A stretch of 64,000 nucleotides of DNA from Candidatus Levybacteria bacterium RIFCSPHIGHO2_02_FULL_40_18 (GTDB lineage: Bacteria; Patescibacteriota; Microgenomatia; Levybacterales; GWA1-39-11), in NCBI GenBank assembly GCA_001782235.1, contig MFOC01000007.1, forward strand, positions 86,799 through 150,798. Direction: 5' to 3'. Below the pieces are notes generated by a model, which saw only the letters and a program-made list of their open reading frames with translations, ran no database searches and was not told where the DNA came from. Shown here piece after piece: positions 10,000-56,789 of this stretch. Within the stretch, counting starts at the first letter, position 1, and each line of letters begins with the position of its first letter. Position numbers and translations under genes: made by a program.

Positions 10000-10009
10000 A
10001 TTTAATAAG

Positions 10010-10135
10010 ATATTAGTTGTTAGAAATTAGAAAATGGTTATGGAAATTAGATGTTGGAAATTGGTTTTGGTTCAACTATTTTCCATTTCCCACTTTCTAT
10101 TACTATTTTCTATTCTCTAGTGGCTATTTTCCTAA
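10010..10135 (-). repeat. Word-repeat palindromic leader element, copy A, immediately 5' of ruvB
   Basis: TAGAAATTAG/GAAAATGG/GGAAATTAG words followed by CTATTTTC/CCATTTCC words. Its 3' part ATCTAATTTCCATAAC...TAATTTCTAACAACTAAT is nearly identical to the nrdR leader (copy G). Confidence 0.6.
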
Positions 10136-20764: not shown

Positions 20765-22981
20765 TTATAAACAAAAATTTGCCGCAGTATCAATAGGTTT
20801 TCTTCCTCCTGTTCCGAGAGAGGCAAACTCAAAATGAACATGATTACAATTGGGATTGTTTGTACAAATTTTGGCCCCAACATCCCCTGATTTTCCCTCT
20901 GAAGTGCCGCTTCCCTGGTCTACATGATGGAATCTAAGCCAGTAGAGCTTACTGGAAGGGCTTGTTCCTCTATACTCTATTATATAACCGACGCCGCTAT
21001 TAGTCCTATCTTCGGAAAGTAGTATCCAGTCAAGAATCTCCCCATCAATTTTTGGAAAATACACATTTTGCCCAGGAGGGCCGGGTATGTCTTCTGCGTA
21101 GTGTATATCTTCATATATGCATAGTTCGGGCGCAGGATAGTTGAGGCCGCAATGCCCGCATTCGCTTCTTGGTGTGAACTCGCTTCCGCAGGAAACAGTA
21201 GATGCAGTTGCTCCCGGAATCGGGCATGTAGCTGAAAACAATGGCCCTGAGGGTGGTGCAACTTCGATCAGCGCGCCATAAGACCCTGCCGGAACAAGTT
21301 TTTCATACCAAAATCTTATATTCGGAGGGAAGTTTGGATTTTGTGCGAATGTACAAGGCGCATCATGCCCGTCACTGTACCTACACATAAAATCAGCAAA
21401 TCTATCATTTGATAAAAAACCGAAACTAATAAAAACACAAGCGAGGCTTTTATTAATATCATCATTTTGCTGACCCGGTGCGCACCCAAGTGGGTCTGCG
21501 GCAGGCACCCCTTGCGCCCCCGACTCCTCAATCCATAGAGCAAGAAGAAACGCAGGATTCCATCCGTTTGCAACTGCCTGCGACACAATGGTATCCCAAT
21601 TGCCAATCTTTGCATCGGGCCAGTTAGCAGTGATTTGTCCGCGAATATCTTGCGGGATTACGTTTGGGTCACGAAAGGGTATAGAGTAGTTAAGTCCTGC
21701 CGCCTGTTGTCCTCCATCTCCAGGGCCGGTCCCCTGACCCCCTCCTCCCCCGCCTCCAAGACCAAGGCTGGGAGCAAAATTGCCTGGGTTAAATATAATA
21801 ATGAATAATGCAAGAGCAAAAATTACAAGAAGACCAATTCCTGCCCATCCGATAGGCGTGAGTTTTGCGAAAAAGCCAAGCGGCTGTGTTGCTGTTTGTT
21901 CAACTATTCGTCCCGCTGTTTGGACATTGCTTAACAAAGATGGGAGTTTGTTAATCCGATCCACTAAGCCCCTTCCAAGCCTTGATCCCGGAGCGCTTCT
22001 TATAGGCGTAGTGCCTATAGGTTTCTCAAGCGGAATATATAATTTATGGGGAGGGACAGCAGGTTTTATGGCTTCAAGTCTTTTTGTTGCTTCCGAAACC
22101 GATATTTTTGGAGCCTCGCGCTTAGCCTTTTCTACGTACTTTATTTCTTTCCCCGTGCTCTCTTGGAAAGACCGAAGACTTCTTTGAATACTCTCTCTTT
22201 CGACGGTTCTCCGTATATCATTATTGCTTGCTTGGTAAGCGCTAGATTTAGTAGGGTATTGCTTTGCAAACCTATCCCACTCCCGACTCTTGATCTTCTT
22301 TTCAATCTCGTCCCAATTCTCTTCGAGCTTTCCCGCTTCAAAAAGAGCTTTTCTTGCCTTAATGTGCTCGTCTATATTGCTCTTCGCTCGATTAACAGCG
22401 GGATCTTCATCAAGGGTTTTATAAATCTTTTTTGCGCGCTCGTCATAATATGCTGCCCGGCTTTTGTTTTTTTCGCGAAATTGTCTCTCGGCATCGCTAC
22501 GAAGCGTTGGAGCATCTGGGTTGTCCAAATTGCCATAGCGATAATCTAACCATTCGTGGCTCTCAGAGGTCTTCCCGGGATTATTTTTCTGCCACTCTTT
22601 TGCTAAATTCTCCTCTATTTTTTTAAACTTAGGGTCATCCTCCAATAGATCTGGCCGCCGCCGGATAAAGAAAAGAGGAGACGCTAGAAGTCCTGCAAAA
22701 TTTGCAAAACCCCCCTGCCCTCGAGCGGTTTCTTGTGGAGCTTCAGGTTCTTGCGTGGGTATTGTTGAAATAGCCTCAAGGATTTGACTTCCTATCCAAA
22801 TACGTTCTAGTTTGTTTGGATCAACGCTCAGGTCATTTGCGCGAAGATATGCCGCCAGTTCTGCGCGAGTTTTAAAAGGAGGTACGCGGTTTTCTTTTAG
22901 ATACTCATTTGTTTCTATTGCATAGCTTTGAGCGCGCTCACGGTTATTCTTTATAAATTTTGAAATATTGTCCATTGGCAA
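20765..22981 (-). CDS. Membrane-anchored bifunctional peptidoglycan hydrolase: lytic transglycosylase (SLT) plus M23 peptidase. Functional analogue of VirB1/CwlT/PrgK.
   Basis: TM helix, Gly-rich linker, SLT catalytic ALWIEESGAQG. M23 signature SGDVGAKICTNNPNCNHVHFEFASLGTGGRKPIDTAANF. Confidence 0.75.
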   Translation of the reverse strand: MPMDNISKFIKNNRERAQSYAIETNEYLKENRVPPFKTRAELAAYLRANDLSVDPNKLERIWIGSQILEAISTIPTQEPEAPQETARGQGGFANFAGLLASPLFFIRRRPDLLEDDPKFKKIEENLAKEWQKNNPGKTSESHEWLDYRYGNLDNPDAPTLRSDAERQFREKNKSRAAYYDERAKKIYKTLDEDPAVNRAKSNIDEHIKARKALFEAGKLEENWDEIEKKIKSREWDRFAKQYPTKSSAYQASNNDIRRTVERESIQRSLRSFQESTGKEIKYVEKAKREAPKISVSEATKRLEAIKPAVPPHKLYIPLEKPIGTTPIRSAPGSRLGRGLVDRINKLPSLLSNVQTAGRIVEQTATQPLGFFAKLTPIGWAGIGLLVIFALALFIIIFNPGNFAPSLGLGGGGGGGQGTGPGDGGQQAAGLNYSIPFRDPNVIPQDIRGQITANWPDAKIGNWDTIVSQAVANGWNPAFLLALWIEESGAQGVPAADPLGCAPGQQNDDINKSLACVFISFGFLSNDRFADFMCRYSDGHDAPCTFAQNPNFPPNIRFWYEKLVPAGSYGALIEVAPPSGPLFSATCPIPGATASTVSCGSEFTPRSECGHCGLNYPAPELCIYEDIHYAEDIPGPPGQNVYFPKIDGEILDWILLSEDRTNSGVGYIIEYRGTSPSSKLYWLRFHHVDQGSGTSEGKSGDVGAKICTNNPNCNHVHFEFASLGTGGRKPIDTAANFCL

Positions 22982-22991
22982 GACAAGCTAT

Positions 22992-25049
22992 CTATGAAGA
23001 AACTATTTTTATTCCTTGAGAGCTTTCATCTAGGTTGGCTTGCGAAATTTTTTCTTGCTCTTGAACGGGAGACGTGTTAGCAGGGGGGGCTGTCATATCT
23101 TGCGCCTGTGTCTCTGGTTGCTCTCCGGGAGCGGATTGAGCGTCAGCGATGGAGGCATCCTCGCTGACAGGCGTGGGCGACGTAGCGGTGGCTGCCTCTT
23201 CTTCATGGGCAAGAATATCTTGAGGTTTTGAGGTGATCAGATCATATTCATATTGTGACGCTATGAACTGCGCGGTTACATGGTTTTGTCCTGCAAAAAG
23301 AAGTCCTTCCCCAACCTGGGCGGTTACTAAAAATTGTTTCTCTCCTTCTGATAAAAATAACGTTTTTGCCAAAACTTCAACTTCTGACGAGTTCTGTTTC
23401 AAGAGAATTTGGACTGAGGAGTTTGAAAGAATAGACTTTCCATAGTCGCTTGACAGGAAATCTTCAATATCCTGAGTAAGGGTTGTCACGCCAAGAAAAT
23501 ATTTTCTTGCGCGCTTTGCTATCCCTTGCAAAAAGGAGGCAGAATCAGGATGCTTCATAAGATACCATGCCTCATCAACCACCAAAATTCTTTTCTTAAG
23601 TTTTGTTCTGACGCGATTCCAAATAAAATCTAAAACCACGTGCATTGCAATTGGACGCAAAACATCCTCGAGCTGTTTAAGAGAAAAGACGGTTAATTGA
23701 TTTTTTATGTTGTAATTCGTCTGCTGATTAAATAGCCCAGAGAATCCACCTTTTACATATTTTTCAAGACGGAAAGAGAGATCCCTTGCCTCCGGCTCCT
23801 CCATATTAAGTAAGGTTTTATAAAGGTCCTCCAAGATCGGCGGCTCGTTTTTGTAGGTTGCAGGATCCGGCGTTATTCCCTTTTGCTTGTAACAAAGAAC
23901 AATCGCTCTATCTAAAATTGCCTCTTGTGTTGGAGACATCTCCCCAAGCATTGTTTTTAGGAGTCCGTGAAGAGATAATATTTTTATTCCAAGCTGGGCA
24001 TCTGTCATGTCTTCTTGGAGAAGGGCAAACGGGTTAATTTTTACCTCAGAACTTTTTGAGAAGTTTATATATTCGCCATCCAAAGCATGACATAAGGTTT
24101 TGTATTCATCTTCGGGATCTATTATTAAAATCTCGGCGTCAAACATCATTTGCCGCAAAATTTCAAGCTTTACCAAAAAAGATTTTCCGGCGCCCGATTT
24201 TCCAAAGACCACTTCATTTGCATTCTCAAAAGAAAAGCGGTCAACAATCGCAAGCGAATTATTTATGGTATTCACGCCATATAGAATTCCGTTTGGATGG
24301 GAAATTTCATAAGACGTAAATGGAAAAGTTGAAGCCAAAGACGTTGTGTCCATATTGCGGGTTATAAATAGCTTGTCGATTCCTGCTGGAAGACAGGTTT
24401 TGAATCCGTCTTCCATCTGAAGCGTTGCGGGTTTTACAACCAAAAGGTTTGAGGAAAGCAAAGACTGAAGTTCTTTGGTTTTTATATCTAAATTCTCAAC
24501 TGAATCTGCTGCCAGGGTTATATATAGACCAAATTGGAAAAACCGTTCAAGACCTCGCGCTAGCTCTTCTCGGAGCGCTATAGCATCTTCAAGCCCCGCC
24601 TGAATTTTAGGATCCGGCTCAAGCCCCTGTTCCGCATCTGACTGAAGTGTTGCCTCCATCTCGGAGATTTTCCTTCGCAGGTTTCCCAAAACATCCTTGC
24701 TTTCAACCGGATATACAAACATTGATATGTTCATTGTTTCTTTATAGTCAATAAGAATTGAGAGCCAGTTTGGAGAAACCTGACGAGGGTAATCTACAAC
24801 AAAAAACGTTCTGAAAAACTTATCGCCAACTCTTATATTTTTAAAATCTACCTCAACTGAGGAGGGGGATATAAGGTCAACAACAGAAACCGAGCCTGAC
24901 TTGAGAGCATTATATCCTTGCGAGGAGGCGCGTTTTTGAGCAGGCCCCGCACCGTCCCGGTGCGGGGCAGGGACTTTCTGGATCTGAGCGTTAGCGGCGG
25001 TTGGATCCGATATAGCCTGTGTCTGTTGTTTTTTATCTTCATCAAACAT
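22992..25049 (-). CDS. VirB4/TrbE/CagE-family T4SS ATPase, central and C-terminal ATPase portion
   Basis: LISPSSVEVDFKNIRVGDKFFRTFFVVDYP region; Walker A VFGKSGAGKSF; Walker B ILVVDEAWYLM. Confidence 0.85.
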   Translation of the reverse strand: MFDEDKKQQTQAISDPTAANAQIQKVPAPHRDGAGPAQKRASSQGYNALKSGSVSVVDLISPSSVEVDFKNIRVGDKFFRTFFVVDYPRQVSPNWLSILIDYKETMNISMFVYPVESKDVLGNLRRKISEMEATLQSDAEQGLEPDPKIQAGLEDAIALREELARGLERFFQFGLYITLAADSVENLDIKTKELQSLLSSNLLVVKPATLQMEDGFKTCLPAGIDKLFITRNMDTTSLASTFPFTSYEISHPNGILYGVNTINNSLAIVDRFSFENANEVVFGKSGAGKSFLVKLEILRQMMFDAEILIIDPEDEYKTLCHALDGEYINFSKSSEVKINPFALLQEDMTDAQLGIKILSLHGLLKTMLGEMSPTQEAILDRAIVLCYKQKGITPDPATYKNEPPILEDLYKTLLNMEEPEARDLSFRLEKYVKGGFSGLFNQQTNYNIKNQLTVFSLKQLEDVLRPIAMHVVLDFIWNRVRTKLKKRILVVDEAWYLMKHPDSASFLQGIAKRARKYFLGVTTLTQDIEDFLSSDYGKSILSNSSVQILLKQNSSEVEVLAKTLFLSEGEKQFLVTAQVGEGLLFAGQNHVTAQFIASQYEYDLITSKPQDILAHEEEAATATSPTPVSEDASIADAQSAPGEQPETQAQDMTAPPANTSPVQEQEKISQANLDESSQGIKIVSS

Positions 25050-25057
25050 AATTTATT

Positions 25058-25170
25058 TAATTCAAAACTCAAAAGTCAAAAGTTAAAAATTAAAGTTAAA
25101 ATTTAAAAGTGTTTTTAATACTTTTTACTTTTGAATTGCAATTTTGAATTTTGCATTTTGACTTTTAACT
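25058..25170. repeat. AT-rich mirror/inverted word repeat: AAAAGTCAAAAGTTAAAA words, then after about 25112 their complements ACTTTTGA/TTTTGACTTTTAAC
   Basis: Read directly. Potential long imperfect hairpin between the two VirB4 ORFs. Confidence 0.55.
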
Positions 25171-25845
25171 TTACAATATTACATTCTTAATATCATTCGA
25201 ATCAAAATCCAAAGTAATAAACTCCTGATTGAATAGTTCATAGTAAAGCTTTATAAGCTCATTAGTTGAAAGTGGTCGAGCAGAGAGTCCCATTCTCTCA
25301 ACTTGCGTAGTAACATTGTTTCTTTTTGAAATAAGCGCTGATTTTACCCTCTCATTTAATGCCAGGTTTTTTTTGTCCGTTGTTTTCGCTTGTGCAGCAG
25401 AGGCTACCCCAAGCTCCAGTTGAGAAAACGGGATTACAATATAAATCTTTTTGTCTAAAAGTCCCTCACCCTTTATCAGATCTTTTATAAAATCTCTATA
25501 TAATGTTAATTGTTCCTTGACCTTAGGGTTTTGGATTCCTGCTATTTTATCCTCGATTAGTTTTATGTAACTGACAAGATCTACGCGCCGTGAGACAATC
25601 AATATTTGAATAGATGAAGAGAGAGAATTAAGAAGAGACATGTAGCCATAGATTCTTGCGTTTTGTTCATCTTGTGAGAGAAGGAAAAAATTAACGGACG
25701 AAACTTCCATAATCATACAAGCATTGCCGCCTTTTAAGAAGACAATATCGTCCTGGATGTCAACAATCTCAGTAAAATCTTGCGTGCTTGAGTGAATCTT
25801 TGACTTAGCCATAATCGATATAGAAATTGGTTGTAGGATTTCCAT
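25171..25845 (-). CDS. VirB4 N-terminal domain (CagE_TrbE_VirB N-terminal region) encoded as a separate ORF
   Basis: STQDFTEIVDIQDDIVFLKGGNACMIMEVSSVNFFLLSQDEQNARIYGYMSLLNSL...IQILIVSRRVDL resembles the N-terminus of TcpF/PrgJ-type VirB4. Confidence 0.6.
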   Translation of the reverse strand: MEILQPISISIMAKSKIHSSTQDFTEIVDIQDDIVFLKGGNACMIMEVSSVNFFLLSQDEQNARIYGYMSLLNSLSSSIQILIVSRRVDLVSYIKLIEDKIAGIQNPKVKEQLTLYRDFIKDLIKGEGLLDKKIYIVIPFSQLELGVASAAQAKTTDKKNLALNERVKSALISKRNNVTTQVERMGLSARPLSTNELIKLYYELFNQEFITLDFDSNDIKNVIL

Positions 25846-25880
25846 TACTAATTTCCATTTTCCAATAACTATTTTCTAGT

Positions 25881-26954
25881 CTATGCTGTTGCTTGGACTC
25901 CGCCGAATAGTTCGCGTCTTAGTTTCTCACGTGCGTCGATTGACGTAGTTTCTAGTGGATTAAAAATCTCGCCGTTCAAAGTAATTTCCGTTGCTTCAAA
26001 TTCATGATTTTTCTGTGGGTCCTCAAAATAGATTTTATAGGTGCCGTTTTGAAGCTGAGTAGCAGAGGCAAATTGTCCAAGAGCATTTGTTTTAAAGGCC
26101 CTAACCGGAATGCCGTTTGAGTCAATTACCTCAACTAAAATATTAGGCAAGGTTTTACCTCGTGCATCACGGATAATTCCAAGCACTACATTGGGGACAT
26201 CGGGTAGAGTTGGAAAGCCTCCGGTAAGGCTTGGATTTGCACGCACAGGGGTTGGCTGTGGCAGAGTTGTTTCTTTTGGAATTTCATGCCGAGTTTCCTT
26301 CATTGAAAATTCAGCGTCCCCAGCCTCTTTTTTGGGGACAGGCGGGGGGCGTTGAGCTTCCTTTGCGATTTCATCAAGTCTTTTTTTGTTCAGCTCCGAA
26401 GCCGTGTTTTCTTGATTTACCACCATAGGACTTCCTAAAACCGGCGGAGTAGAGACCGCACTTGATCCGTTTGTAAAATAGCTATTGATGGTGTCCAATA
26501 TGCGAGTTTCTGATTGATCCGGACGGAAAGGAGAATTTCTGAGTCTGCTTAATAAAACTGCTCTTTTTTCATCTTGTGGATTCGCAACCTTTGCTATCCC
26601 GCCTTGGCGGGGGGCACCTTGCTTTTTGGGAAGCTCGCCAAACACTTGAAACGTTGCCAGATTTGCACCCCTTTTTCTATATAGATAGCGATTTTCAGAA
26701 GGAATTGCTTTTGCAAAGTTGACGAGCATTACATCCATTGGTCTTCCTTCAATTGGAACAAATGCAAGAGCAACTCCTACAAGCGCAAAAGCCGCCATAG
26801 TTGGAGCTTTAATTAAAATATTGATTGGAAGTACAAAAGCAACAGTTGTTAAAATTCCAAATCCGAGAAGATATAAAAATTGCTTTACAGTAATGCTTCC
26901 AATGAGTTTAAACTTGAAACCCGTAACATCTTGCGGAATAGGGTGATTTTCCAT
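25881..26954 (-). CDS. PrgI/VirB3-like membrane protein with a long C-terminal extension ending in a carboxypeptidase-regulatory-like beta-sandwich
   Basis: N-terminal IPQDVTGFKFKLIGSITVKQFLYLLGFGIL plus a second TM. C-terminal VVLGIIRDARGKTLPNILVEVIDSNGIPVRAFKTNALGQF. Confidence 0.5.
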   Translation of the reverse strand: MENHPIPQDVTGFKFKLIGSITVKQFLYLLGFGILTTVAFVLPINILIKAPTMAAFALVGVALAFVPIEGRPMDVMLVNFAKAIPSENRYLYRKRGANLATFQVFGELPKKQGAPRQGGIAKVANPQDEKRAVLLSRLRNSPFRPDQSETRILDTINSYFTNGSSAVSTPPVLGSPMVVNQENTASELNKKRLDEIAKEAQRPPPVPKKEAGDAEFSMKETRHEIPKETTLPQPTPVRANPSLTGGFPTLPDVPNVVLGIIRDARGKTLPNILVEVIDSNGIPVRAFKTNALGQFASATQLQNGTYKIYFEDPQKNHEFEATEITLNGEIFNPLETTSIDAREKLRRELFGGVQATA

Positions 26955-31901: not shown

Positions 31902-32210
31902 CTATCTTGGGGCGAGCTGCCCTACGCCCGTGATTTGGGATATGGCGTTAAGGAAGAAAAATGAGAGAAAGATAAATATCAGACCAGCAAGCGCATAGAC
32001 TAAAGTTTTCCTAGCGCTTGATATCTTTTCAGGATCCCCTTCTGACATAACATATTTATATCCTGCATAAATTATCATAAAAACCGATACAATACCCGCA
32101 ATTACAATAAGGGCATTGATGATATTTTGAAGAACCACAGGGATACACGAAAGAGTTGCGACGCCCTCAGGGCTAACACAACTTCCCCAATCAGAAATAA
32201 TATCAAACAT
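31902..32210 (-). CDS. T4SS pilin-like protein (VirB2/TrbC-like, two TM helices), paralog 1
   Basis: TM...SEGDPEKISSARK...TM shares the loop motif [ST][SG]GD[KP][EQ]K...AR with three neighbouring genes. Confidence 0.6.
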   Translation of the reverse strand: MFDIISDWGSCVSPEGVATLSCIPVVLQNIINALIVIAGIVSVFMIIYAGYKYVMSEGDPEKISSARKTLVYALAGLIFIFLSFFFLNAISQITGVGQLAPR

Positions 32211-32260
32211 ATATATATTTTATAGATAACCTAATCTTAAAATCAATAAAGAAGGTTTTG

Positions 32261-32659
32261 TTATTTGAATTCAGGGAGGGTGAGGATCTTGAGATTTCTT
32301 AGGTCTCCAAGTCCAAGAGCCTGAAGCACAACATTTATAATGACAAAAGAAAGAGCTATTATAATAAGACCTATTACTGCGGCAATTATATGATTTCTTG
32401 CATCTGCAACTTTTTGTTTGTCTCCGCCTGATGTGATCCACTGAAATGCCCCAATGACTATAAAAAGAAGTGCCGCCAAAAAGGCTATAACTATTATAAA
32501 GGCAACCAAAAACCCTACCACTTGGCCAATGGTTGTTTCAGGAGGAATAACAGTTGCGCCCGCGGGAGTTTTGACTCCGGCATCTATCGCGGCAAAAGCA
32601 GGTGCGGCAAGTGAGGAATAAGAAATTAGAGCGAAGGCACCTGATAATATCTTTCTCAT
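32261..32659 (-). CDS. T4SS pilin-like protein with signal peptide, paralog 2
   Basis: Signal peptide ...LAAPAFAA, then TM-SGGDKQKVADAR-TM. Confidence 0.65.
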   Translation of the reverse strand: MRKILSGAFALISYSSLAAPAFAAIDAGVKTPAGATVIPPETTIGQVVGFLVAFIIVIAFLAALLFIVIGAFQWITSGGDKQKVADARNHIIAAVIGLIIIALSFVIINVVLQALGLGDLRNLKILTLPEFK

Positions 32660-32698
32660 AAATTAATTAGAGCATGTTTCAAACCCTTTGTCAATAGT

Positions 32699-33034
32699 CT
32701 ATGGATTAACAACTGTTTTAACACCAAACGCGCCTGCTACGAGATTTACAAAGACAAGCGCCAATGACATAACTATTAATCCAAATATCGCATAGATAAC
32801 TATTCTTCTTGCTTTATCCCATTTTTGCTTGTCCCCGGACGCTTGTAGCCAATAAAAACCCCCATAAACAATATAGAATAGAGAAAGAAAAATTCCAATA
32901 ATTAGCGCTAGTTGAATGAAAAAAGATGCAATATTGCCTATTGTAAATTGAGGTCCGGTAGGAATACCGGGAGGCGCCTCAATATCAACTTGGCCTCCGC
33001 CTGAACCCGGTACTTTTAATGATAAATATCTCAT
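32699..33034 (-). CDS. T4SS pilin-like protein, paralog 3
   Basis: TM-ASGDKQKWDKAR-TM. Confidence 0.65.
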   Translation of the reverse strand: MRYLSLKVPGSGGGQVDIEAPPGIPTGPQFTIGNIASFFIQLALIIGIFLSLFYIVYGGFYWLQASGDKQKWDKARRIVIYAIFGLIVMSLALVFVNLVAGAFGVKTVVNP

Positions 33035-33171
33035 ATTAGAAATTGGTTATTAATAATTAGAAAATAGTTCAGAAATTAGAAATTAGAAATTGGTTCTTGA
33101 TTTTTAACTATTTTCTATTCTCTATTTTCCATTACCATTTTCCATTCTCCTATAACTATTTTCTAATATAT
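33035..33171 (-). repeat. Word-repeat palindromic leader element, copy B, 5' of the pilin paralog-3 gene
   Basis: ATTAGAAATTGGTTATTAATAATTAGAAAATAGTT... then CTATTTTCTATTCTCTATTTTCCATTACCATTTTCC. It contains a 29-bp segment (33084-33112) that is a perfect inverted copy of 34648-34676. Confidence 0.6.
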
Positions 33172-34569
33172 TTAGCGGGTGATTCCTGGTATTTTCAAAA
33201 TATCAACTCCTATTATCTCAAGTATAACAATTGAGAAAATGATGAACAACAATCCTACGACTGCAGAAGTTATCGTTTCCCTTGCTCCTGCGATTTTCTC
33301 TTTATCCCCTCCTGACGTTATTAATATATAGCCTGAGTAGATTATTATTATGATTGCCCCAAATCCCGCAATTGTTAATATAAATCTAAAAATTGTCTCA
33401 ATGAATCCTTTTGGAGTGACATTAATTGGTCCGATTGCCGAATTTATGGTTTTACAGTCACCAGGGCGAAGATTAATATCACCTTCCCCACTTCCACAAG
33501 GCAGTATTGCACCGGGAGCAACCTTATTTAACGCCGCAAGGTCTTTAAGAAAGGTACGATACTCCTCGCCTTTGGGATCTTGTCTATAATGCAGGGGATC
33601 ATCACATGTTCCACCTTCCTTATTATTAGCTGATGTGATTATGCATGTTGCTTCATAATATGTAAATCCACCTTTACAACCAGGTGGGTTTGGAACTGAA
33701 GGAAATACGCTGACGCTTACCCAAGCCCATGCGGTTGGGTTATCATCATCAACCTGTTCTCTTACAGTTATTGTGTATTTTCCAGCGGAAAGTTTTTGAA
33801 ACTCAATTCTTTTTCCACTCTCATTCTCGCTCGTAAAGGCAAGACATCCTCCCTGTCGGTAACCATTGTTTCCAATCATCAAAATTTGGTAGTTATTCCT
33901 TCTCCACCCTCCAGGCCTGAACGAATTATTAATGGCATTGCCTAGATTTACGGTGATTGTTGCGCCAGGTCTCAAGTCTGTACCAGGATAGATTGATAGA
34001 GAAGGATAAGTTCTATGAACATAAAAACCTCCTATTTTAATTGGTTTGTAATAGGCATCTTTTATTAGGGTTCCGATACTCAGCGCATAGACATTCCCAC
34101 CATGAAAATAGACAGTGCCACCACAGTCAGTTTTGACCTTGCTACTTCCTGCTCCGCATACCCCCTTAACAGTTACATTGCCTTTGCTATCTGATTTTAG
34201 CCCTAAGATAAAATTGTCCAATATATCTGGGCCGTTTATCCCAGGTACAAATCCTTCTTCTCTAAGACATGCGCTGTCTCCCGTACAAATTATATAACCA
34301 GACTTATCACTCTCAAGTCCATAAAAAGTAATATCAATTATTTTATCTGCTTCATCAAGACATTCAGGTCGCTCGCTTGTTGAAAATTCAACGTCTGTTC
34401 CCTCAAGAATTGTCTCAGTGGGAGAAGGACTTGTCTGACATGGATCAAGCTGGGCAAAAGCAGGAGTTTTGAAAAGTAAAAATATCGCGGCGAAGAGGAA
34501 GGACGCGGTTAATATAAGAAGCTTCTTCATATATTTATGATAGGCAGAAGGAGTAGGGGAAGTCAACAT
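33172..34569 (-). CDS. Large pilin-domain protein: signal peptide, Cys-rich extracellular domain (about 380 aa), C-terminal pilin-like two-TM module
   Basis: C-terminus ...IIIIIYSGYILITSGGDKEKIAGARETITSAVVGLLFIIF matches the paralog motif. At least 14 Cys in the ectodomain. Confidence 0.6.
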   Translation of the reverse strand: MLTSPTPSAYHKYMKKLLILTASFLFAAIFLLFKTPAFAQLDPCQTSPSPTETILEGTDVEFSTSERPECLDEADKIIDITFYGLESDKSGYIICTGDSACLREEGFVPGINGPDILDNFILGLKSDSKGNVTVKGVCGAGSSKVKTDCGGTVYFHGGNVYALSIGTLIKDAYYKPIKIGGFYVHRTYPSLSIYPGTDLRPGATITVNLGNAINNSFRPGGWRRNNYQILMIGNNGYRQGGCLAFTSENESGKRIEFQKLSAGKYTITVREQVDDDNPTAWAWVSVSVFPSVPNPPGCKGGFTYYEATCIITSANNKEGGTCDDPLHYRQDPKGEEYRTFLKDLAALNKVAPGAILPCGSGEGDINLRPGDCKTINSAIGPINVTPKGFIETIFRFILTIAGFGAIIIIIYSGYILITSGGDKEKIAGARETITSAVVGLLFIIFSIVILEIIGVDILKIPGITR

Positions 34570-34723
34570 CCGCTAGAAATTAGTTATTAATAATTAGAAA
34601 ATAGTTGTTGGAAAATGGAAATTAGTAATGGAAAATAGAGAATAGAAAATAGTTAAAAATCAAGAACCAATTTCTAGTTTCTAATTTCCGAACCATTCTC
34701 TAATTTCCCATAACTACTTTCTG
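34570..34723 (-). repeat. Word-repeat palindromic leader element, copy C, 5' of the large pilin-domain gene
   Basis: GCTAGAAATTAGTTATTAATAATTAGAAAATAGTT... (30-mer near-identical to the start of copy B), then GGAAAATGG/GAAAATAG words, then CTAATTTC words. Confidence 0.6.
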
Positions 34724-36040: not shown

Positions 36041-36103
36041 AGAAAATAGAAAATAGTTATTAGAAAATAGACAATGGTTCGGAAATTAGAAAATAGAAAT
36101 TGG
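36041..36103 (-). repeat. Word-repeat leader element, copy D, 5' of the AAA+-wHTH gene
   Basis: AGAAAATAGAAAATAGTTATTAGAAAATAGACAATGGTTCGGAAATTAGAAAATAGAAATTGG. Confidence 0.55.
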
Positions 36104-36532
36104 TTAACGATCATGGTAATTCTTCCAAGATTTCTTAAGATTCGTTAGTTGCTTACAGGAGATTATATATAAATTTATGACTTCGTTGCAAAGTTTAGGA
36201 TCGACGTATTTACTATAAACATCTATGCATACTGATAAATGATTTATCATTTCGTAACATTCACCTATCGTATCATCTATATATTTACTCCATGCTTTTT
36301 TCTGATATCTTTTGGCAAACCCCTCAGCAAGTATGGCTGGTCCTGCTTTGCAACTACGTCTCATTTGATCAACAAGATCAAACTTCTCTTCCTTCGGTAG
36401 ATTAGTAATTATTTCCTTCAATACTGTGACCATTGCCTTATATAAATTTTGGTACACCTCAAGATCTTGAAAAGTTCTGATTGGCTTTTTCTTTCTATTT
36501 TCCATTTTCAAATATCTATTACCATTTTCCAC
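36104..36532 (-). CDS. Four-helix-bundle protein (23S rRNA intervening-sequence protein family). The probable true start is near 36505, because the first codons are built from leader-repeat words.
   Basis: FQDLEVYQNLYKAMVTVLKEIITNLPKEEKFDLVDQMRRSCKAGPAILAEGFAKRYQKKAWSKYIDDTIGECYEM matches the family pattern. Confidence 0.65.
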   Translation of the reverse strand: MENGNRYLKMENRKKKPIRTFQDLEVYQNLYKAMVTVLKEIITNLPKEEKFDLVDQMRRSCKAGPAILAEGFAKRYQKKAWSKYIDDTIGECYEMINHLSVCIDVYSKYVDPKLCNEVINLYIISCKQLTNLKKSWKNYHDR

Positions 36533-36560
36533 TTTCCTACAACCATTTACAATTATCAGA
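36488..36560 (-). repeat. Word-repeat leader element, copy E (CTATTTTCCATTTTC... on the plus strand), overlapping the annotated 5' end of the four-helix-bundle gene
   Basis: TTCTATTTTCCATTTTCAAATATCTATTACCATTTTCCACTTTCC. Confidence 0.5.
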
Positions 36561-41335: not shown

Positions 41336-41344
41336 AATTGATTT

Positions 41345-41480
41345 TAGTATTTAGAAATTGGTTTTTGGACAATAGAAATTAGTAATAGAAAATAGAGAAT
41401 AGAAAATAGAAACAAATACTATTCTCCAAGTTCAAATTTCCATAACCATTTTCCAATTTCTTACAACTATTTTCTAATAA
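41345..41480 (-). repeat. Word-repeat palindromic leader element, copy F, 5' of the VirB6-like gene
   Basis: TAGAAATTGGTTTTTGGACAATAGAAATTAGTAATAGAAAATAGAGAATAGAAAATAG ... CCATAACCATTTTCCAATTTCTTACAACTATTTTCTAAT. Confidence 0.6.
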
Positions 41481-41719
41481 GTCTATTTTTAGTATGGGCT
41501 AAAAATATCGTAAATGTCAAATAGTTGGCTTGACCCCGCTAATCTTACCGTTCGCCTTTTTCCCGCCGATATTTTTCGGTCGGGATCCCGCACGAATGTA
41601 ATTCGTCGGGACAGTACTATTCGTACACGGCTCACGGAGCGATTTTAGAGGTGTCTTCTGTCGCTACGCTTCTTGACAATTGGTGTGGTTGGGGTTATTA
41701 TTATCAAAATCTTCATTAA

Positions 41720-42537: not shown

Positions 42538-42564
42538 TGCACCTTGAACAACCAGCCCAATTAA

Positions 42565-42690
42565 GCAGAAAATAGTTAATAGATAATAGAAAATAGTAAT
42601 GGAAGTTGGAAAATAGAAAATAGATTAAATACCAATTTCTAATATCTAATTTCCATAACTAATATCTAATTTCTAACAACTAATTTCTGT
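42565..42690 (+). repeat. Word-repeat palindromic leader element, copy G, 5' of nrdR
   Basis: CAGAAAATAGTTAATAGATAATAGAAAATAGTAATGGAAGTTGGAAAATAGAAAATAG ... ATCTAATTTCCATAACTAATATCTAATTTCTAACAACTAATTTCTG. Confidence 0.6.
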
Positions 42691-42706
42691 AATTTAGAAT
42701 TTAATT

Positions 42707-45673: not shown

Positions 45674-45856
45674 GTTAGCAATTAGCAATTAGTTTCAAAT
45701 AAGAGTATATATTTGGTAATCGCCGTGAAAGTCGGCGGAACTGCCGGTACTGTAATATCCAGAAAACAATATATACTTTCATCCCCGAGCAGGGTTAAGC
45801 GAAGAAGAATTCCTCTCGGGTTATCGAGAGGTTTTTTTGTGAGCAATAGTTGAACT
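45674..45856 (+). promoter_or_regulatory. Structured 5' leader upstream of the adenosyltransferase gene: hairpin CGCCGUGAAAGUCGGCG (45721-45737), then an intrinsic terminator immediately before the start codon
   Basis: Terminator stem CCUCUCG-GGUUAU-CGAGAGG followed by UUUUUUU. Architecture typical of a riboswitch or attenuator; class not identified. Confidence 0.4.
45812..45839 (+). terminator. Rho-independent terminator (7-bp GC-rich stem plus T7) about 18 nt upstream of the adenosyltransferase start codon
   Basis: cctctcgggttatcgagaggttttttt read directly. Confidence 0.6.
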
Positions 45857-48461: not shown

Positions 48462-48499
48462 CTTACAAACGCTGCTTCGTGCGAAGCCGCGTTTGACGC

Positions 48500-48854
48500 G
48501 GTGGAGATGGGGGGCTTTGAGCCCCCGTCCAAAAAAGCATCTATAAAAACATCTACAAGCTTATTCAATTATTTATTGTCATCATGCAAACTCCAATTGA
48601 AAGGATTGAACATGACTAAGATTTAAATTGTTCGAACAAAATCTAAATCGGAACTTTGTCTATATCCAAACTTTGTTTATGCCCATATCTGATCGTTTGG
48701 AAAAATCTAGATATGAACACCAGTTTAAGCTACTGCGTAGCTGTAGGCCGGACTAACATTTCTGTTAGCATTTATTTTTGATACATTTTTACGATTAGTA
48801 TCATTATCGGCTTGCAGTTTTTAAAGAGCAATTCTGTCGATGCAATGCATCCCC
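48500..48854 (-). ncRNA. ssrA: tmRNA (ssrA), about 355 nt, CCA not fully encoded
   Basis: Acceptor stem GGGGAUG pairs with CAUCUCC. tRNA-like T-arm GGGGG-CUCAAAG-CCCCC at the 3' end. Internal tag ORF GCU AAC AGA AAU GUU AGU CCG GCC UAC AGC UAC GCA GUA GCU UAA gives ANRNVSPAYSYAVA then stop. Located immediately downstream of smpB. Confidence 0.65.
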
Positions 48855-54371: not shown

Positions 54372-56789
54372 CTAAATGGAGCCGCCAGGTCCGAGCCTTC
54401 CTTCTGGGCCTTTGTCAACGCTTGATTGAATATCGCCAAGCACTTCGTATAATCGCGATCTCTTAGCAATTTCTGCCTCAACCAATTCTTTTTGTTTTCC
54501 GTATTTGAGTCTTGATAATTCTCTAATTAATTCTGCGACTCTTGGATTTTCAAGCTTTTTCTCGGCAACCAAATCTCGAGTTAAGTCCAATGAAAATGGC
54601 GTGGTAGGCTCAGAATTAATCAGAGTTTTTACGTATGCATGGAATCTTTCAACATTAATTAAATCCGCTTCGTTAAACACCGGTTGAAATTCATGTTGCA
54701 GGTAATTTGCATCAGAAACTCCTACCCGAAATGAAATTAATGTTCCGACATTTCCAAAGATTGCGTTTTTAACATCCTCCTCAATTTGACCGATAAACTG
54801 GTTCGCAACCGTTAGGTTTAATCTATATTTTCGGGCCTCTGACAAAATTTGTCCAAAATCGGGAGTCGCAAAATTCTGAAACTCATCAACGTAAAGATAG
54901 AAATCCCTACGTTGGTCTTGCGGCACATCTTGCCTTGACATTGCTGCGGCAAGAATTTTTGGAACCAAAATTAAACCCAAGAAGGAGGAATTATCTTCTC
55001 CAATTTTTCCTTTGGCAAGAGAGATAAGTAAAATCTTTCCCTGGTCCATAACTTCTCGCAGTGAAAATGCGCTTTTTGATTGCCCTATGATATTTCTCAT
55101 CATGCGGTTTGTGACAAAGCGGCCGAATTTTGAAACTATATAATCCAACACCTCAGACTTATGAAAATCTGAGGTTTGCGCAATCTGATCAGTCCAGTAG
55201 CGGCGAACAATTGGATCTTGAACTTTCGGCAAGAGCTCCTGCACAAAGGAAGAATCGGTTAGGACTCGGACAACCTCAACAAAAGTATTCCCCGGCTCTG
55301 ACATAACAGTGTACATGGCATTTCTTATAGCATGCTCAAAACGCGGTCCAATAATGCCAGTTTTATTAGGATCATATAATTTGTACATAAGTCCTATTAT
55401 TGACGTAATTATTAGGTCTTTTTGCTCTTCGGTTTGAACGTCCAACATGTTTAGTCCCATTGGGCGTTCCGTGTCTCCCGGATCAAAAAGAATTACGTCT
55501 TCTGCGCGCTCCGGAGGAATGAGAGGCAAGAGCATATCGATTGTGTCATGAGGATCAATAAAACAAACTCCATATCCAGCGCGAATGTCTTGTAAGATCA
55601 TGTCTTTTAAAAATTCTGATTTTCCTACGCCTGTCTTACCTATAATATACATATGACGGCGTCTGTCATCCTCCCCGATATAAACAGGCCGCGAGATCCC
55701 GCGATAAATGCTTTTCCCAGTGTATAATCCGGCGGAAGGAATATTTGCGGGTGCAGGCGCGACTCGGGCACCTAGCCAATGGATAGCAGGTGTCTCAACC
55801 GTTTTATTTGGAAAATGAAAAATTGTTGCAAGTTCATCTGTTGTTAAAACTCCGGGGTTGTTTGGCACAAGCGGAAGTTGACGATAGATAAAATCAATCA
55901 TTGCCATTCCCTTAAACAATCTATGCTTCACTTTTTCAAAGGAGTTAAAAGAAGAGAACTGTGAGAATGAGCCCACAATATTTGTAAGATGTGCTTCTGC
56001 GGATTCCTTTGTTGAAGAAGCAGTAAGGATTCTAACATGCGTTTCAAATCCGGGCTTTGTAATCTTTTGCTCAATTGCCTCAAGTTCTTTTTGATCAACC
56101 GAGTATTTTGCAGTTTCAGGATTCGCCTCTCTCTTTTTAGTGGTTGTAATGTATGATCGGCCGCTTTTTTTCCAAGCGTCGCCGGTAAGGGTTATCAAAA
56201 TTTGTAAAGCCGCAGCTTCTCCTTCCTGCATTTTTCCTAATGTGCTTGTAATTGATGAAAGAGGATCAACCGGAAGATCCTTATAGGTTTTTATTGGAAG
56301 ATAATGAGCTTTTGAGAGCTTTAGTTGTGCGTAGGCGATTTTACCTGGATTTTCAAAAAGATTATATTCTTCAACCTGAAGAATCTGCGCGTCTGGATAG
56401 CTTCCATGAATCTGCTTTTCAACCATGTCGCGAAGCCTATTTGGCACGCCAACATAAAATCTTATATCTTGAGGTTTTGCGACTATTTCAAAAGATATAA
56501 TGTCGGGAACTTTAAGAAATCCAAAAATTCCCTTAGTTCCTGCGATTGAAGTAAGACCTGAGAATAATTGATCTGCAGCGTCTATTTTTATCTCGTTTTC
56601 GCGTGGGAGTGATACCTCAAGAAGAGATGAGTCAAGAGCCTTCTCGTGTCTTTCTTGGGATTTTCGCCAAAACCCTAATGCCAAAAAAATCCCTAACAGG
56701 CACGCAATAACTACGGATGCCATTAAAAAGGCTAGGAGAAAAACAAAGACTAGATTAATAATGGCTTGCGAAAAAGCATCAAGCTGCAC
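54372..56789 (-). CDS. VirD4/TraG-family type IV coupling-protein-like ATPase, with N-terminal TM helices and a roughly 350-aa pre-ATPase domain
   Basis: Walker A YIIGKTGVGKSEF followed by GVCFIDPHDTID (T4CP-like xIDPxGD). Walker B FYLYVDEFQNF. Confidence 0.6.
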   Translation of the reverse strand: MQLDAFSQAIINLVFVFLLAFLMASVVIACLLGIFLALGFWRKSQERHEKALDSSLLEVSLPRENEIKIDAADQLFSGLTSIAGTKGIFGFLKVPDIISFEIVAKPQDIRFYVGVPNRLRDMVEKQIHGSYPDAQILQVEEYNLFENPGKIAYAQLKLSKAHYLPIKTYKDLPVDPLSSITSTLGKMQEGEAAALQILITLTGDAWKKSGRSYITTTKKREANPETAKYSVDQKELEAIEQKITKPGFETHVRILTASSTKESAEAHLTNIVGSFSQFSSFNSFEKVKHRLFKGMAMIDFIYRQLPLVPNNPGVLTTDELATIFHFPNKTVETPAIHWLGARVAPAPANIPSAGLYTGKSIYRGISRPVYIGEDDRRRHMYIIGKTGVGKSEFLKDMILQDIRAGYGVCFIDPHDTIDMLLPLIPPERAEDVILFDPGDTERPMGLNMLDVQTEEQKDLIITSIIGLMYKLYDPNKTGIIGPRFEHAIRNAMYTVMSEPGNTFVEVVRVLTDSSFVQELLPKVQDPIVRRYWTDQIAQTSDFHKSEVLDYIVSKFGRFVTNRMMRNIIGQSKSAFSLREVMDQGKILLISLAKGKIGEDNSSFLGLILVPKILAAAMSRQDVPQDQRRDFYLYVDEFQNFATPDFGQILSEARKYRLNLTVANQFIGQIEEDVKNAIFGNVGTLISFRVGVSDANYLQHEFQPVFNEADLINVERFHAYVKTLINSEPTTPFSLDLTRDLVAEKKLENPRVAELIRELSRLKYGKQKELVEAEIAKRSRLYEVLGDIQSSVDKGPEGRLGPGGSI

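What the first reader, a model, noticed from the sequence alone, without database searches (positions are those of the whole stretch)
22992..25845. VirB4 ATPase encoded as two ORFs separated by a 120-bp AT-rich mirror repeat
The 224-aa ORF at 25171-25845 matches only the N-terminal domain of VirB4/TcpF-type ATPases. The 685-aa ORF at 22992-25049 begins with a 60-residue low-complexity linker and then continues with the canonical middle region (LISPSSVEVDFKNIRVGDKFFRTFFV...) and the Walker motifs. Between them (25058-25170) lies a strand-switching word repeat: AAAAGTCAAAAGTTAAAA words, then ACTTTTGA/TTTTGACTTTTAAC words. This could be a natural two-gene organisation, or a once-intact gene interrupted by insertion of a small palindromic element. 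The palindrome could also be an oriT-like or regulatory hairpin inside the operon.
Basis: partly seen in the sequence, partly recalled or inferred. Interest (0 to 1): 0.55.

Follow-up and report, generated by a model that had tools for sequence, protein, structure and literature searches.

The report
TrsD–VirB4 gene pair with palindromic spacer
The "split VirB4" is the normal, already published two-gene arrangement (trsD-like gene plus virB4) of the secretion system of Patescibacteria, and the 121-bp repeat between the genes is a later-acquired copy of a common intergenic palindrome, not the cause of the split.

Summary
A 224-aa ORF (25171-25845, minus strand) has the fold of the VirB4 N-terminal domain. 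A 685-aa ORF (22992-25049) carries the rest of VirB4. Between them lies a 121-bp spacer of 17% GC, built of 7-nt A-rich words and then T-rich words. It is an imperfect inverted repeat, not a mirror repeat.

The "interrupted gene" reading is refuted.
- All 14 related loci examined have the two genes, and five of them have spacers of only 1-10 bp.
- No residues are missing at the junction.
- Both genes are under strong purifying selection (dN/dS 0.04-0.09).
- A 2025 paper already reports TrsD, a remote homologue of the VirB4 N-terminus, next to virB4 in over 1,600 Patescibacteria loci, near dnaA/dnaN and mostly without a relaxase.

The spacer is the more interesting part. The same stop/start junction carries at least four unrelated hairpin types in close relatives. 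The window's type recurs at 88% identity between atpG and atpD on an unrelated contig. There, its two arms also flank a PF05635 (23S-rRNA-IVS protein) gene. The window holds its own such cassette and five or more other word-palindromes that fill intergenic spacers.

Verdict: a known gene arrangement plus a REP/MITE-like palindrome. Whether the palindrome has a function is untested.

The parts
25171..25845 (-). trsD-like gene. It encodes a stand-alone VirB4 N-terminal-domain protein. The likely true start is the ATG at 25812 (Met12), giving 213 aa. The conserved C-terminal motif is ..DIKNVIL.
   Evidence: NCBIfam TrsD/TraD 6e-8 and VirB4 N-terminal profile positions. Pfam PF26593 TraC-like, precomputed. 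Foldseek top 14 hits are all TrwK/VirB4. More than 500 homologues of ~210-220 aa. dN/dS 0.04-0.07.
25050..25170 (-). 121-bp intergenic word-palindrome (type A). On the mRNA strand, A-rich 7-nt words (AAAAGTC, AAAATGC, AAAATTC) come first, then a loop, then T-rich words (TTTTAAC, TTTTGAC, TTTTGAG). It folds as a hairpin of ~28-36 AU-rich pairs that runs from the trsD stop to ~10 nt before the virB4 ATG.
   Evidence: Homologous spacers in L003 and L007, and a non-orthologous copy in L111.
25115..25156 (-). 13-codon small ORF inside the A-rich arm (MQNSKLQFKSKKY*). It is conserved in L003, L007 and L111 and resembles the N-terminus of PF05635 proteins whose genes are flanked by the same arms. It is probably a remnant. 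Translation is untested.
22992..25049 (-). virB4 gene (VirB4 core and ATPase). Residues 1-56 (24882-25049) are a disordered N-terminal extension. The Walker A motif GKSGAGKS and Walker B motif LVVDEAW are present. Residues ~621-685 form a low-complexity tail.
   Evidence: CD1110 VirB4 profile 177-732 of 752, 410 bits. Pfam P-loop_TraG, AAA_10 and CagE_TrbE_VirB. 4AG5 at 1e-46. Alignment to fused P0137.
25881..26954 (-). prgI/virB3-like gene directly upstream of trsD.
   Evidence: Pfam PrgI 5e-7. Same position in all relatives.
25813..25880 (-). prgI|trsD spacer carrying a short AGAAAAT-type word arm. It overlaps the first 11 codons of the listed 224-aa ORF.
   Evidence: blastn-short of the IVP cassette arms. 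The fold is weak, z -1.0.
20765..22981 (-). 738-aa gene downstream of virB4 in the same operon. The equivalents in relatives carry Peptidase_M23, SLT_3 or CHAP domains, so it is a VirB1-like wall hydrolase candidate.
31902..34569 (-). Array of T4SS_pilin (VirB2-like) genes at the head of the cluster: 465, 111, 132 and 102 aa.
   Evidence: Precomputed Pfam on the identical contig L001. Window coordinates obtained by mapping.

Best explanation
The two ORFs are the conserved trsD-like gene and the virB4 gene of the chromosomal type IV secretion system of a Candidatus Levybacteria (Patescibacteria) genome. In this system the N-terminal ~200 residues of canonical VirB4 are made as a separate protein, and the two proteins presumably assemble non-covalently (inferred).

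The ancestral junction was a tight stop/start overlap of 1-3 bp, of the kind that allows translational coupling. In the lineage of this window, a ~120-bp palindrome made of 7-nt A-rich and then T-rich words was acquired in that junction. It belongs to a class of dispersed intergenic "word-palindromes" in these genomes, whose arms also flank PF05635 (23S-rRNA-IVS protein family) genes. The copy here looks like such a cassette without its gene, because it keeps a 13-codon remnant of the protein's N-terminus.

It is most likely transcribed inside the operon and folds into an AU-rich hairpin of 30-40 bp. The base of that hairpin brings the trsD stop and the virB4 start close together. It is therefore tolerated, and at most it modulates expression (by processing, pausing or uncoupling). 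It is not needed by the secretion system.

Shown: homology, conservation of the split, turnover of the spacer, and dispersal of the element. Inferred: transcription through the spacer, hairpin formation in vivo, and neutrality or a modulating role.
For: Split is natural and old:
- All 14 loci with 45-100% ORF1 identity are split.
- More than 500 homologues are ~210-220 aa long.
- Of 150 family representatives, 48 are stand-alone, 99 carry a disordered tail, and 3 continue into VirB4 core sequence, one of them full-length (P0137).
- dN/dS is 0.04-0.09 for both genes.
- The profile positions abut and a fused homologue shows no loss.
- PMC12102498 reports TrsD next to virB4 in 1,664 cases, near dnaA/dnaN and mostly without a relaxase. 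The window shows the same context.

Spacer is secondary and mobile-like:
- Spacer lengths are 1, 2, 2, 3 and 10 bp in five loci. The outgroup and the basal branch are tight.
- Sister genomes L006/L007 (bootstrap 100) and L133/L004 (bootstrap 96) carry unrelated spacers.
- At least four hairpin types occupy the same junction.
- The type A spacer is 84% conserved across WIN, L003, L007 and L111, although synonymous sites are saturated (pS 0.62-0.71).

Dispersal:
- The 22-mer from the A-arm occurs on more than 119 metagenome contigs, none of which encodes TrsD or VirB4.
- L111 has an 88%-identical full copy filling the atpG|atpD spacer, and it has split arms flanking a PF05635 gene.
- In 41 two-armed cases the hairpins mostly abut at least one flanking gene within ~25 nt. 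Where both neighbours are close, they fill the spacer from gene end to gene start.
- The window has its own PF05635 cassette (36104-36532). It also has five further significant palindromes built of that cassette's words, for example in ruvA|ruvB.
Against: - Only one type A copy is present in the 64-kb window. The rest of this genome could not be scanned.
- No transposase, target-site duplication or other mobility mechanism was identified.
- The high sequence conservation of the A-rich arm could also reflect a selected function rather than recent spread.
- The two arms do not co-vary. The A-arm is nearly invariant while the T-arm drifts. Structure alone therefore does not explain the conservation.
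- The direction (cassette losing its gene, or gene inserting into an existing hairpin) is not resolved.
- There are no expression data of any kind.
Confidence: 0.72

Rival explanations
1. The hairpin is a selected cis-regulatory element of the operon. It would be an AU-rich attenuator or terminator, or an RNase III processing site. It would lower or uncouple virB4 expression relative to trsD, or its 13-codon small ORF would relay ribosomes and open the stem.
For: - The spacer is far more conserved than synonymous sites.
- The hairpin spans from shortly after the trsD stop (within ~5-20 nt) to ~10 nt before the virB4 start.
- All palindromes seen have an A-rich 5' arm and a U-rich 3' arm, as bidirectional terminators do.
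- Genes that follow palindromes lack both a Shine-Dalgarno sequence and the TATAAT-N6-12-ATG geometry that many other genes in this genome show.
- IVS stems that flank PF05635 genes in 23S rRNA are RNase III substrates (PMC4990558).
Against: - Five of 14 relatives have no spacer at all, and others have unrelated sequences at the same site, so nothing specific to the secretion system is required.
- The same element sits between atpG and atpD and between ruvA and ruvB.
- No compensatory changes are seen.
- Sense and antisense folds are equally stable.
- There is no classical terminator signature and no Rfam family match.
Confidence: 0.2
2. A once-intact virB4 was broken by insertion of the palindrome. 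The two ORFs would then be halves of a pseudogene or of a recently fissioned gene.
For: - Canonical VirB4 is a single protein.
- A fused 787-aa homologue exists in another Patescibacteria lineage.
- The spacer is an insertion-like palindrome.
Against: - The split is present in all 14 loci, including those with 1-10-bp spacers, and in the outgroup at 45% identity.
- Both ORFs are under strong purifying selection.
- Each half has its own conserved terminus..DIKNVIL at the end of ORF1 and MLGFGKK or MFD at the start of ORF2.
- The split is published as widespread.
Confidence: 0.03
3. The T-rich arm carries an internal promoter that drives virB4 separately, as a leaderless or short-leader mRNA.
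For: - A sigma-70-like match, TTGACT-18-TAAATT, ends at 25050.
- TTGAC words are repeated in the arm.
- The genome relies on promoters placed just before start codons.
Against: - The match is only 9 of 12, and such matches are near chance level (13 found, 8.6 expected).
- The -10-like hexamer abuts the ATG, whereas real -10 boxes in this genome end 6-12 nt upstream.
- The hexamer is not conserved in L003 or L007.
Confidence: 0.05
4. The palindrome is an oriT or nic-site hairpin for DNA transfer by this secretion system.
For: The only support is the general resemblance of oriT regions to AT-rich inverted repeats.
Against: - No relaxase was found among the window ORFs scanned against Pfam.
- Relaxases are absent from most Patescibacteria type IV secretion clusters.
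- The element is absent from many orthologous loci and present in unrelated operons.
Confidence: 0.01

Closest known systems
TrsD/TraD plus TrsE/TraE (VirB4) of the pGO1/pSK41/pIP501 subclass of MPF-FATA conjugation systems, and the Patescibacteria type IV secretion system described in Microb Genom 2025 (PMC12102498)
   Same: - A ~200-aa protein remotely homologous to the VirB4 N-terminus is encoded directly upstream of a shortened virB4.
- A prgI/virB3-like gene lies upstream, together with a VirB2-like pilin array.
- The location is chromosomal, next to dnaA/dnaN, with no relaxase nearby.
- A coupling-protein-like gene lies ~30 kb away.
   Different: - The match to the NCBIfam TrsD model is far below its curated cutoff (32.7 against 200 bits).
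- The paper does not, in the passages read, discuss the intergenic spacer or its turnover.
Dispersed intergenic palindromes cotranscribed with flanking genes: REP/BIME of enterobacteria and Correia/NEMIS elements of Neisseria. The latter are reported to be cut by RNase III (from my own knowledge, not checked here).
   Same: - Imperfect palindromes of 70-150 bp confined to intergenic spacers, often inside operons.
- Several copies per genome.
- Presence or absence differs between close relatives.
   Different: - These are built of tandem 7-9-nt words with strict polarity (A-rich 5' arm, T-rich 3' arm).
- The word type is genome-specific.
- The arms can enclose a PF05635 gene.
- No RAYT or other transposase and no target duplication were seen.
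23S rRNA intervening sequences carrying an S23p/PF05635 ORF (Leptospira, Coxiella; PMC4990558)
   Same: - Terminal inverted repeats form a long stem that encloses a PF05635 gene.
- The element is described as selfish.
- The stem is excised by RNase III in those systems.
   Different: - Here the cassettes and their gene-less stems sit between protein-coding genes, not in 23S rRNA.
- The copy in the finding has no gene, only a 13-codon remnant.
- Processing is untested.
Short tandemly repeated heptamers (STRR) and small dispersed repeats of cyanobacteria (from my own knowledge). One identical heptamer run appears upstream of jamI in Lyngbya (PMC2799420).
   Same: Tandem heptanucleotide words in intergenic DNA. 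Nested insertions occur within hairpins (L129, L133).
   Different: The phylum and the words differ. No link to this family has been shown.

Membership tests
TrsD/TraD family (NCBIfam NF041427) / Pfam PF26593 TraC-like | Sequence match over the whole ~200-aa model | tested here: inconclusive
   NF041427 gives E 6.3e-8 over profile positions 11-200 of 201, but 32.7 bits against a curated cutoff of 200. A PF26593 hit is on record for this protein. My own Pfam scan at E<=0.01 found nothing.
TrsD/TraD family | Stand-alone protein with the fold of the VirB4 N-terminal domain | tested here: met
   The AlphaFold model has pLDDT 79. The top 14 Foldseek PDB hits are all TrwK/VirB4 (E 3.7e-5 to 2e-3, ~180 aligned columns). 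A fused homologue, P0137, aligns at residues 6-200.
TrsD/TraD family | Encoded immediately upstream of virB4 in a type IV secretion cluster | tested here: met
   The same order holds in 14 of 14 related loci.
VirB4 (NCBIfam NF045971, CD1110 family) | Score above the curated cutoff, with Walker A and B motifs | tested here: met
   410.5 bits against a cutoff of 325, covering profile positions 177-732 of 752. GKSGAGKS and LVVDEAW can be read in the translation. 4AG5 matches at E 1e-46.
VirB4 (canonical single-chain) | N-terminal domain and ATPase in one polypeptide | tested here: not met
   ORF2 lacks profile positions 1-176. These are supplied by ORF1, which is in another frame, with stops in all frames of the spacer.
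Disrupted gene / pseudogene | Residues lost at the break, relaxed selection, intact gene in close relatives | tested here: not met
   No residues are lost. dN/dS is 0.04-0.09. No intact fused gene was found in any of 13 relatives.
Patescibacteria chromosomal type IV secretion cluster (PMC12102498) | VirB4, TrsD, PrgI/VirB3 and a VirB2 array, near dnaA/dnaN, without a relaxase | tested here: met
REP/MITE-like dispersed intergenic palindrome | Imperfect palindrome of ~70-150 bp confined to intergenic DNA | tested here: met
REP/MITE-like dispersed intergenic palindrome | Several related copies at unrelated loci | tested here: met
   Type A occurs in L111 at atpG|atpD (88% over 114 nt), with further arms on the same contig. 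The 22-mer is on more than 119 contigs that lack trsD and virB4. In the window itself type A is single-copy, but the AGAAAAT type has seven or more sites.
REP/MITE-like dispersed intergenic palindrome | Presence or absence differs between close relatives | tested here: met
   L006 against L007, L133 against L004, and L134 against WIN.
REP/MITE-like dispersed intergenic palindrome | Associated transposase (RAYT or IS) or target-site duplication | tested here: inconclusive
   None is recognisable by eye at the junctions. No transposase was found in the window ORFs scanned. The whole genome was not available.
IVS-type cassette (inverted-repeat stem enclosing a PF05635 gene) | PF05635 ORF between the arms | tested here: not met
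   The spacer holds only a 13-codon small ORF. The feature is met for related cassettes: L111, L070 and window 36104-36532, L132 and L135 (precomputed Pfam), and L017 (profile search only).
IVS-type cassette | Excision of the stem by RNase III | not testable with these tools
   This needs transcript end mapping or an in-vitro assay.
Intrinsic terminator | G+C-rich stem followed by a U-tract | tested here: not met
   No terminator-like site lies in 25050-25170. The stem is almost pure A-U.
oriT | Cognate relaxase and a conserved nic region | tested here: not met
   No relaxase domain is present in the window ORFs scanned against Pfam. The element is absent from orthologous loci.

The most novel reading that the evidence does not exclude
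The word-palindromes would be gene-less stems of PF05635 (IVS-protein/Avd-like) cassettes. These would form a mobile, hairpin-forming element family that targets stop/start junctions inside Patescibacteria operons (trsD|virB4, ruvA|ruvB, atpG|atpD, pilin genes). They would always have an A-rich 5' arm and a U-rich 3' arm.

They would persist because the stem folds out of the mRNA. Either RNase III would process it, as it does 23S rRNA intervening sequences, or the stem would bring the stop and start codons together so that the downstream cistron is still translated in a genome that hardly uses Shine-Dalgarno sequences. In effect they would be protein-operon counterparts of rRNA intervening sequences, acting as operon punctuation.
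Probability: 0.2. Interest if true: 0.6.

Novelty: new member of a known kind. Interest (0 to 1): 0.3.

Why it matters
For annotation, this gene pair should be named trsD-like plus virB4. It should not be flagged as a frameshifted or disrupted virB4. The arrangement is the norm in Patescibacteria, and the system is reported to be essential for epibiotic growth in the one tested species (as cited in PMC12102498).

The spacer result is of modest wider interest. It shows that a conserved, probably translationally coupled junction in an essential operon is repeatedly colonised by different palindromic elements within very short evolutionary distances. It also links these palindromes to PF05635 cassettes. 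If followed up, this could explain how ultra-small genomes with few Shine-Dalgarno sequences punctuate their operons. It could also give a function to the very abundant "23S rRNA IVS protein" genes.

Tried and rejected
- PDB sequence searches with ORF1 alone and with a 37-sequence profile found nothing meaningful. Only the structure comparison worked.
- Rfam gave no family for the spacer, for the window apart from tRNAs, tmRNA and a B12 riboswitch, or for 11 G+C-rich contigs carrying the same arms.
- The promoter and terminator consensus scan gave only chance-level hits in the spacer.
- Comparing sense and antisense RNA stability, to find the strand on which a hairpin is selected, showed no consistent bias.
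- I first read "A-rich arm first" as an orientation bias relative to transcription. I rejected that reading because a palindrome has this polarity on both strands. With the 22-mer used as a strand marker, co-directional contexts split 8 to 11, which is no bias.
- A cluster look-up for L111 proteins returned no names, so the taxon of L111 is unknown.
- Literature searches for the heptamer sequence, for heptameric-repeat hairpins and for PF05635 mobility found no description of this element.
- A first whole-window folding scan timed out and was rerun with a coarser step.
Full report
**What is there**

On the minus strand the window carries, in order: prgI/virB3-like (25881-26954), a 224-aa ORF (25171-25845), a 121-bp spacer (25050-25170), a 685-aa ORF (22992-25049), and then 738-aa and 167-aa ORFs.

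An identical contig shows the wider context. Four T4SS_pilin genes and a response-regulator-like gene lie upstream. dnaN and dnaA lie just downstream. The rest of the window holds housekeeping genes (rpoD, ruvABC, ribonucleotide reductase, tmRNA), a coupling-protein-like gene at 54372-56723, and no relaxase. The exact ORF1 protein is recorded in NCBI from Candidatus Levybacteria.

**Homology of the two ORFs**

ORF1:
- It matches N-terminal positions of VirB4 profiles, and it matches the TrsD/TraD model almost end to end, though weakly.
- Its predicted structure (pLDDT 79) finds only TrwK/VirB4 of plasmid R388 among the best 14 PDB matches.

ORF2:
- It scores above the curated cutoff for the CD1110 VirB4 family, covering profile positions 177-732 of 752. 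ORF1 covers positions 18-181 of the same model, so the two abut.
- Against a rare fused Patescibacteria homologue (P0137, 787 aa), ORF1 residues 17-207 align to residues 6-200, and ORF2 residues 57-620 align to residues 210-775.

Nothing is missing at the junction. The split proteins have extra residues instead: a 17-residue ORF1 tail and a 56-residue disordered ORF2 head. The ORFs are in different frames, and the spacer has stops in every frame.

**Is the split natural?**

Yes.
- More than 500 close homologues of ORF1 are all ~210-220 aa long.
- Among 150 representatives of the wider family, 48 are stand-alone and 99 have the same domain plus a Q/P/T/S-rich disordered tail. Three continue into VirB4 core sequence, and only one of these (P0137) is a full-length fusion.
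- All 14 loci I could read (45-100% ORF1 identity) have two genes.
- Both genes are under strong purifying selection, with dN/dS 0.04-0.09.

This is also published. PMC12102498 describes TrsD as a remote homologue of the VirB4 N-terminus, known from the pGO1 subclass of monoderm conjugation systems. It is the most abundant type IV secretion component in Patescibacteria, and 1,664 of 2,272 copies lie next to virB4. The clusters lie near dnaA/dnaN, carry VirB2 arrays and mostly lack relaxases.

**The spacer**

The spacer is 17% G+C. On the mRNA strand it is made of A-rich 7-nt words, a loop, and then T-rich words. It is therefore an imperfect inverted repeat (65-nt arms, 71% complementary), not a mirror repeat.

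Its fold is only modestly better than shuffles. It is nevertheless the joint best hairpin of the window after correction for G+C. The four-word A4N3 pattern occurs nowhere else in the window.

**Turnover at the junction**

Spacer lengths and types in the 14 loci are:

| Spacer | Loci |
|---|---|
| 1, 2, 2, 3 and 10 bp (no hairpin) | L130, L009, L132, L134, L008 |
| Type A, the window's kind (121, 121 and 111 bp) | WIN, L003, L007 |
| Related heptamer variant | L133 |
| TTCGAAA-word hairpin | L005, L129 |
| G+C-containing hairpin | L004 |
| ATGGCTA-word hairpin | L135 |
| AT-rich stretch without a hairpin | L006 |

In a bootstrapped tree the outgroup and the basal branch have tight junctions. 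The sister pairs L006/L007 (bootstrap 100) and L133/L004 (bootstrap 96) carry unrelated spacers. The simplest reading is an ancestral tight stop/start junction that has been filled repeatedly and independently.

The L004 type also occurs upstream of prgI in L133 and, in degenerate form, in the window.

**Dispersal**

- A 22-mer from the A-arm occurs on more than 119 metagenome contigs, and none of them encodes TrsD or VirB4.
- About a third of those contigs form two-armed hairpins. These mostly abut at least one flanking gene within ~25 nt, and where both neighbours are close they fill the spacer from gene end to gene start, in all gene orientations.
- The best relative, in L111, is 88% identical over 114 nt and fills the atpG|atpD spacer, again ending at the ATG.
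- The four type A copies are 84% identical, while synonymous sites between the same genomes are saturated. The A-arm is nearly invariant, the T-arm drifts, and no compensatory changes are seen.

**Link to PF05635 cassettes**

- On L111 the same two arms are ~340 bp apart and enclose a 124-aa PF05635 (23S-rRNA-IVS protein) gene. The same holds in L017 and L070.
- The A-arm contains an ATG. In the gene-less hairpins it opens a conserved 13-codon ORF, MQNSKLQFKSKKY* (window 25115-25156). This resembles the N-terminus of those proteins (MQNLNSKFKSD...).
- In L135 and L132, PF05635 genes sit upstream of prgI flanked by inverted word repeats. In L135 the words are the same ones that form its trsD|virB4 hairpin.
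- The window itself has a PF05635 gene (36104-36532, E 3e-15) flanked by AGAAAAT/ATTTTCT words.
- The same words form significant palindromes that fill ruvA|ruvB (10000-10123) and other spacers at 33035-33171, 34574-34723, 41336-41485 and 42560-42706 (z -3.9 to -6.8). They also form a short arm in prgI|trsD.

Word-palindromes are therefore a general feature of this genome and are not tied to VirB4.

**Mechanism**

Established here:
- The split is conserved.
- The spacer is secondary.
- The element class is dispersed.

Inferred:
- The palindrome is cotranscribed and forms an AU-rich stem of 30-40 bp that juxtaposes the trsD stop and the virB4 start.
- It is tolerated, or at most modulatory.

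In this genome, 3 of 39 gene starts have a Shine-Dalgarno-like sequence, and many have TATAAT 6-12 nt before the ATG, which suggests leaderless mRNAs. Genes that follow palindromes have neither. How they are translated is open. Possible routes are RNase III processing, as for IVS stems, or re-initiation across the stem base. Both are speculative.

An internal promoter, a classical terminator and an oriT are each poorly supported.

**Verdict**

The gene arrangement is already known. The palindromic spacer is a new member of the REP/MITE-like kind, with an unreported link to PF05635 cassettes. Overall interest is modest.

Noticed in passing
window 36041-36560 (minus strand): A PF05635 (23S rRNA-IVS protein) gene lies at 36104-36532 (E 3e-15). 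It is flanked by purine-rich words (GGAAAATGG, AGAAAATAG) on the 5' side and complementary ATTTTCT words on the 3' side. The 3' words run right up to the ATG of the response-regulator-like gene at 36040.
   Followed up: partly
window 10000-10123, 33035-33171, 34574-34723, 41336-41485, 42560-42706: Five long word-palindromes, built of the same AGAAAAT/ATTTTCT words, each fill an intergenic spacer: ruvA|ruvB, between pilin-cluster genes, and upstream of nrdR. Fold z-scores are -3.9 to -6.8. The 5' arm is always A/purine-rich and the 3' arm T-rich.
   Followed up: partly
whole window (upstream regions of 39 long ORFs): Many genes have TATAAT ending 6-12 nt before the ATG, and only 3 of 39 have a Shine-Dalgarno-like sequence. 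This suggests mostly leaderless or very short-leader mRNAs in this Levybacteria genome.
   Followed up: no
L016, L043, L051, L060, L079, L083, L091, L097, L118 (contigs with G+C 0.62-0.66): The same AT-rich heptamer arms (aatTCAAAATGCAAAATTCAAAATTcaaac ... gtttgcattttgaattttgaatt) flank a G+C-rich core of 60-90 nt, with a shared GGTGA-like motif, in high-G+C soil contigs. There is no Rfam match. This is unexplained; it could be a MITE or a structured RNA.
   Followed up: partly
proteins P0126-P0269: Most distant TrsD-like proteins of Patescibacteria carry a Q/P/T/S/N-rich disordered tail of 70-500 residues. In four of the six tails I read (P0180, P0212, P0257, P0265) it ends in a shared ..LPPI(A/S)EI motif. 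In the window's lineage the disordered segment instead sits at the N-terminus of VirB4, and TrsD ends in ..DIKNVIL.
   Followed up: no
window 54372-56723 (minus strand): A 783-aa protein has weak TraG-D_C, TrwB_AAD_bind and DUF87 hits. It is a coupling-protein (VirD4-like) candidate ~30 kb from virB4, as reported for other Patescibacteria.
   Followed up: no
L129 3643-3781 and L133 184-431: Nested insertions. L129's TTCGAAA-word hairpin has an extra G+C hairpin compared with L005. L133's copy of the L004-type element has an extra CCCTGCCTTGCCGGCAGGCAGG in its loop.
   Followed up: no
L029 9757-9880 and 10211-10334: Two near-identical 124-nt heptamer hairpins lie 454 bp apart, each following a short (~110-120 aa) gene. 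This may be a tandem duplication of gene plus hairpin.
   Followed up: no
window 20765-22981, compared with L129, L130 and L132: The gene after virB4 has no Pfam hit here. Its positional equivalents carry Peptidase_M23, SLT_3 or CHAP domains, which suggests swapping of the wall-hydrolase module between close relatives.
   Followed up: no
window 45704-45777 (plus strand) and 48499-48854 (minus strand): An AdoCbl-II riboswitch lies between the ribonucleotide reductase gene and a cobalamin adenosyltransferase gene. A tmRNA gene is also present.
   Followed up: no
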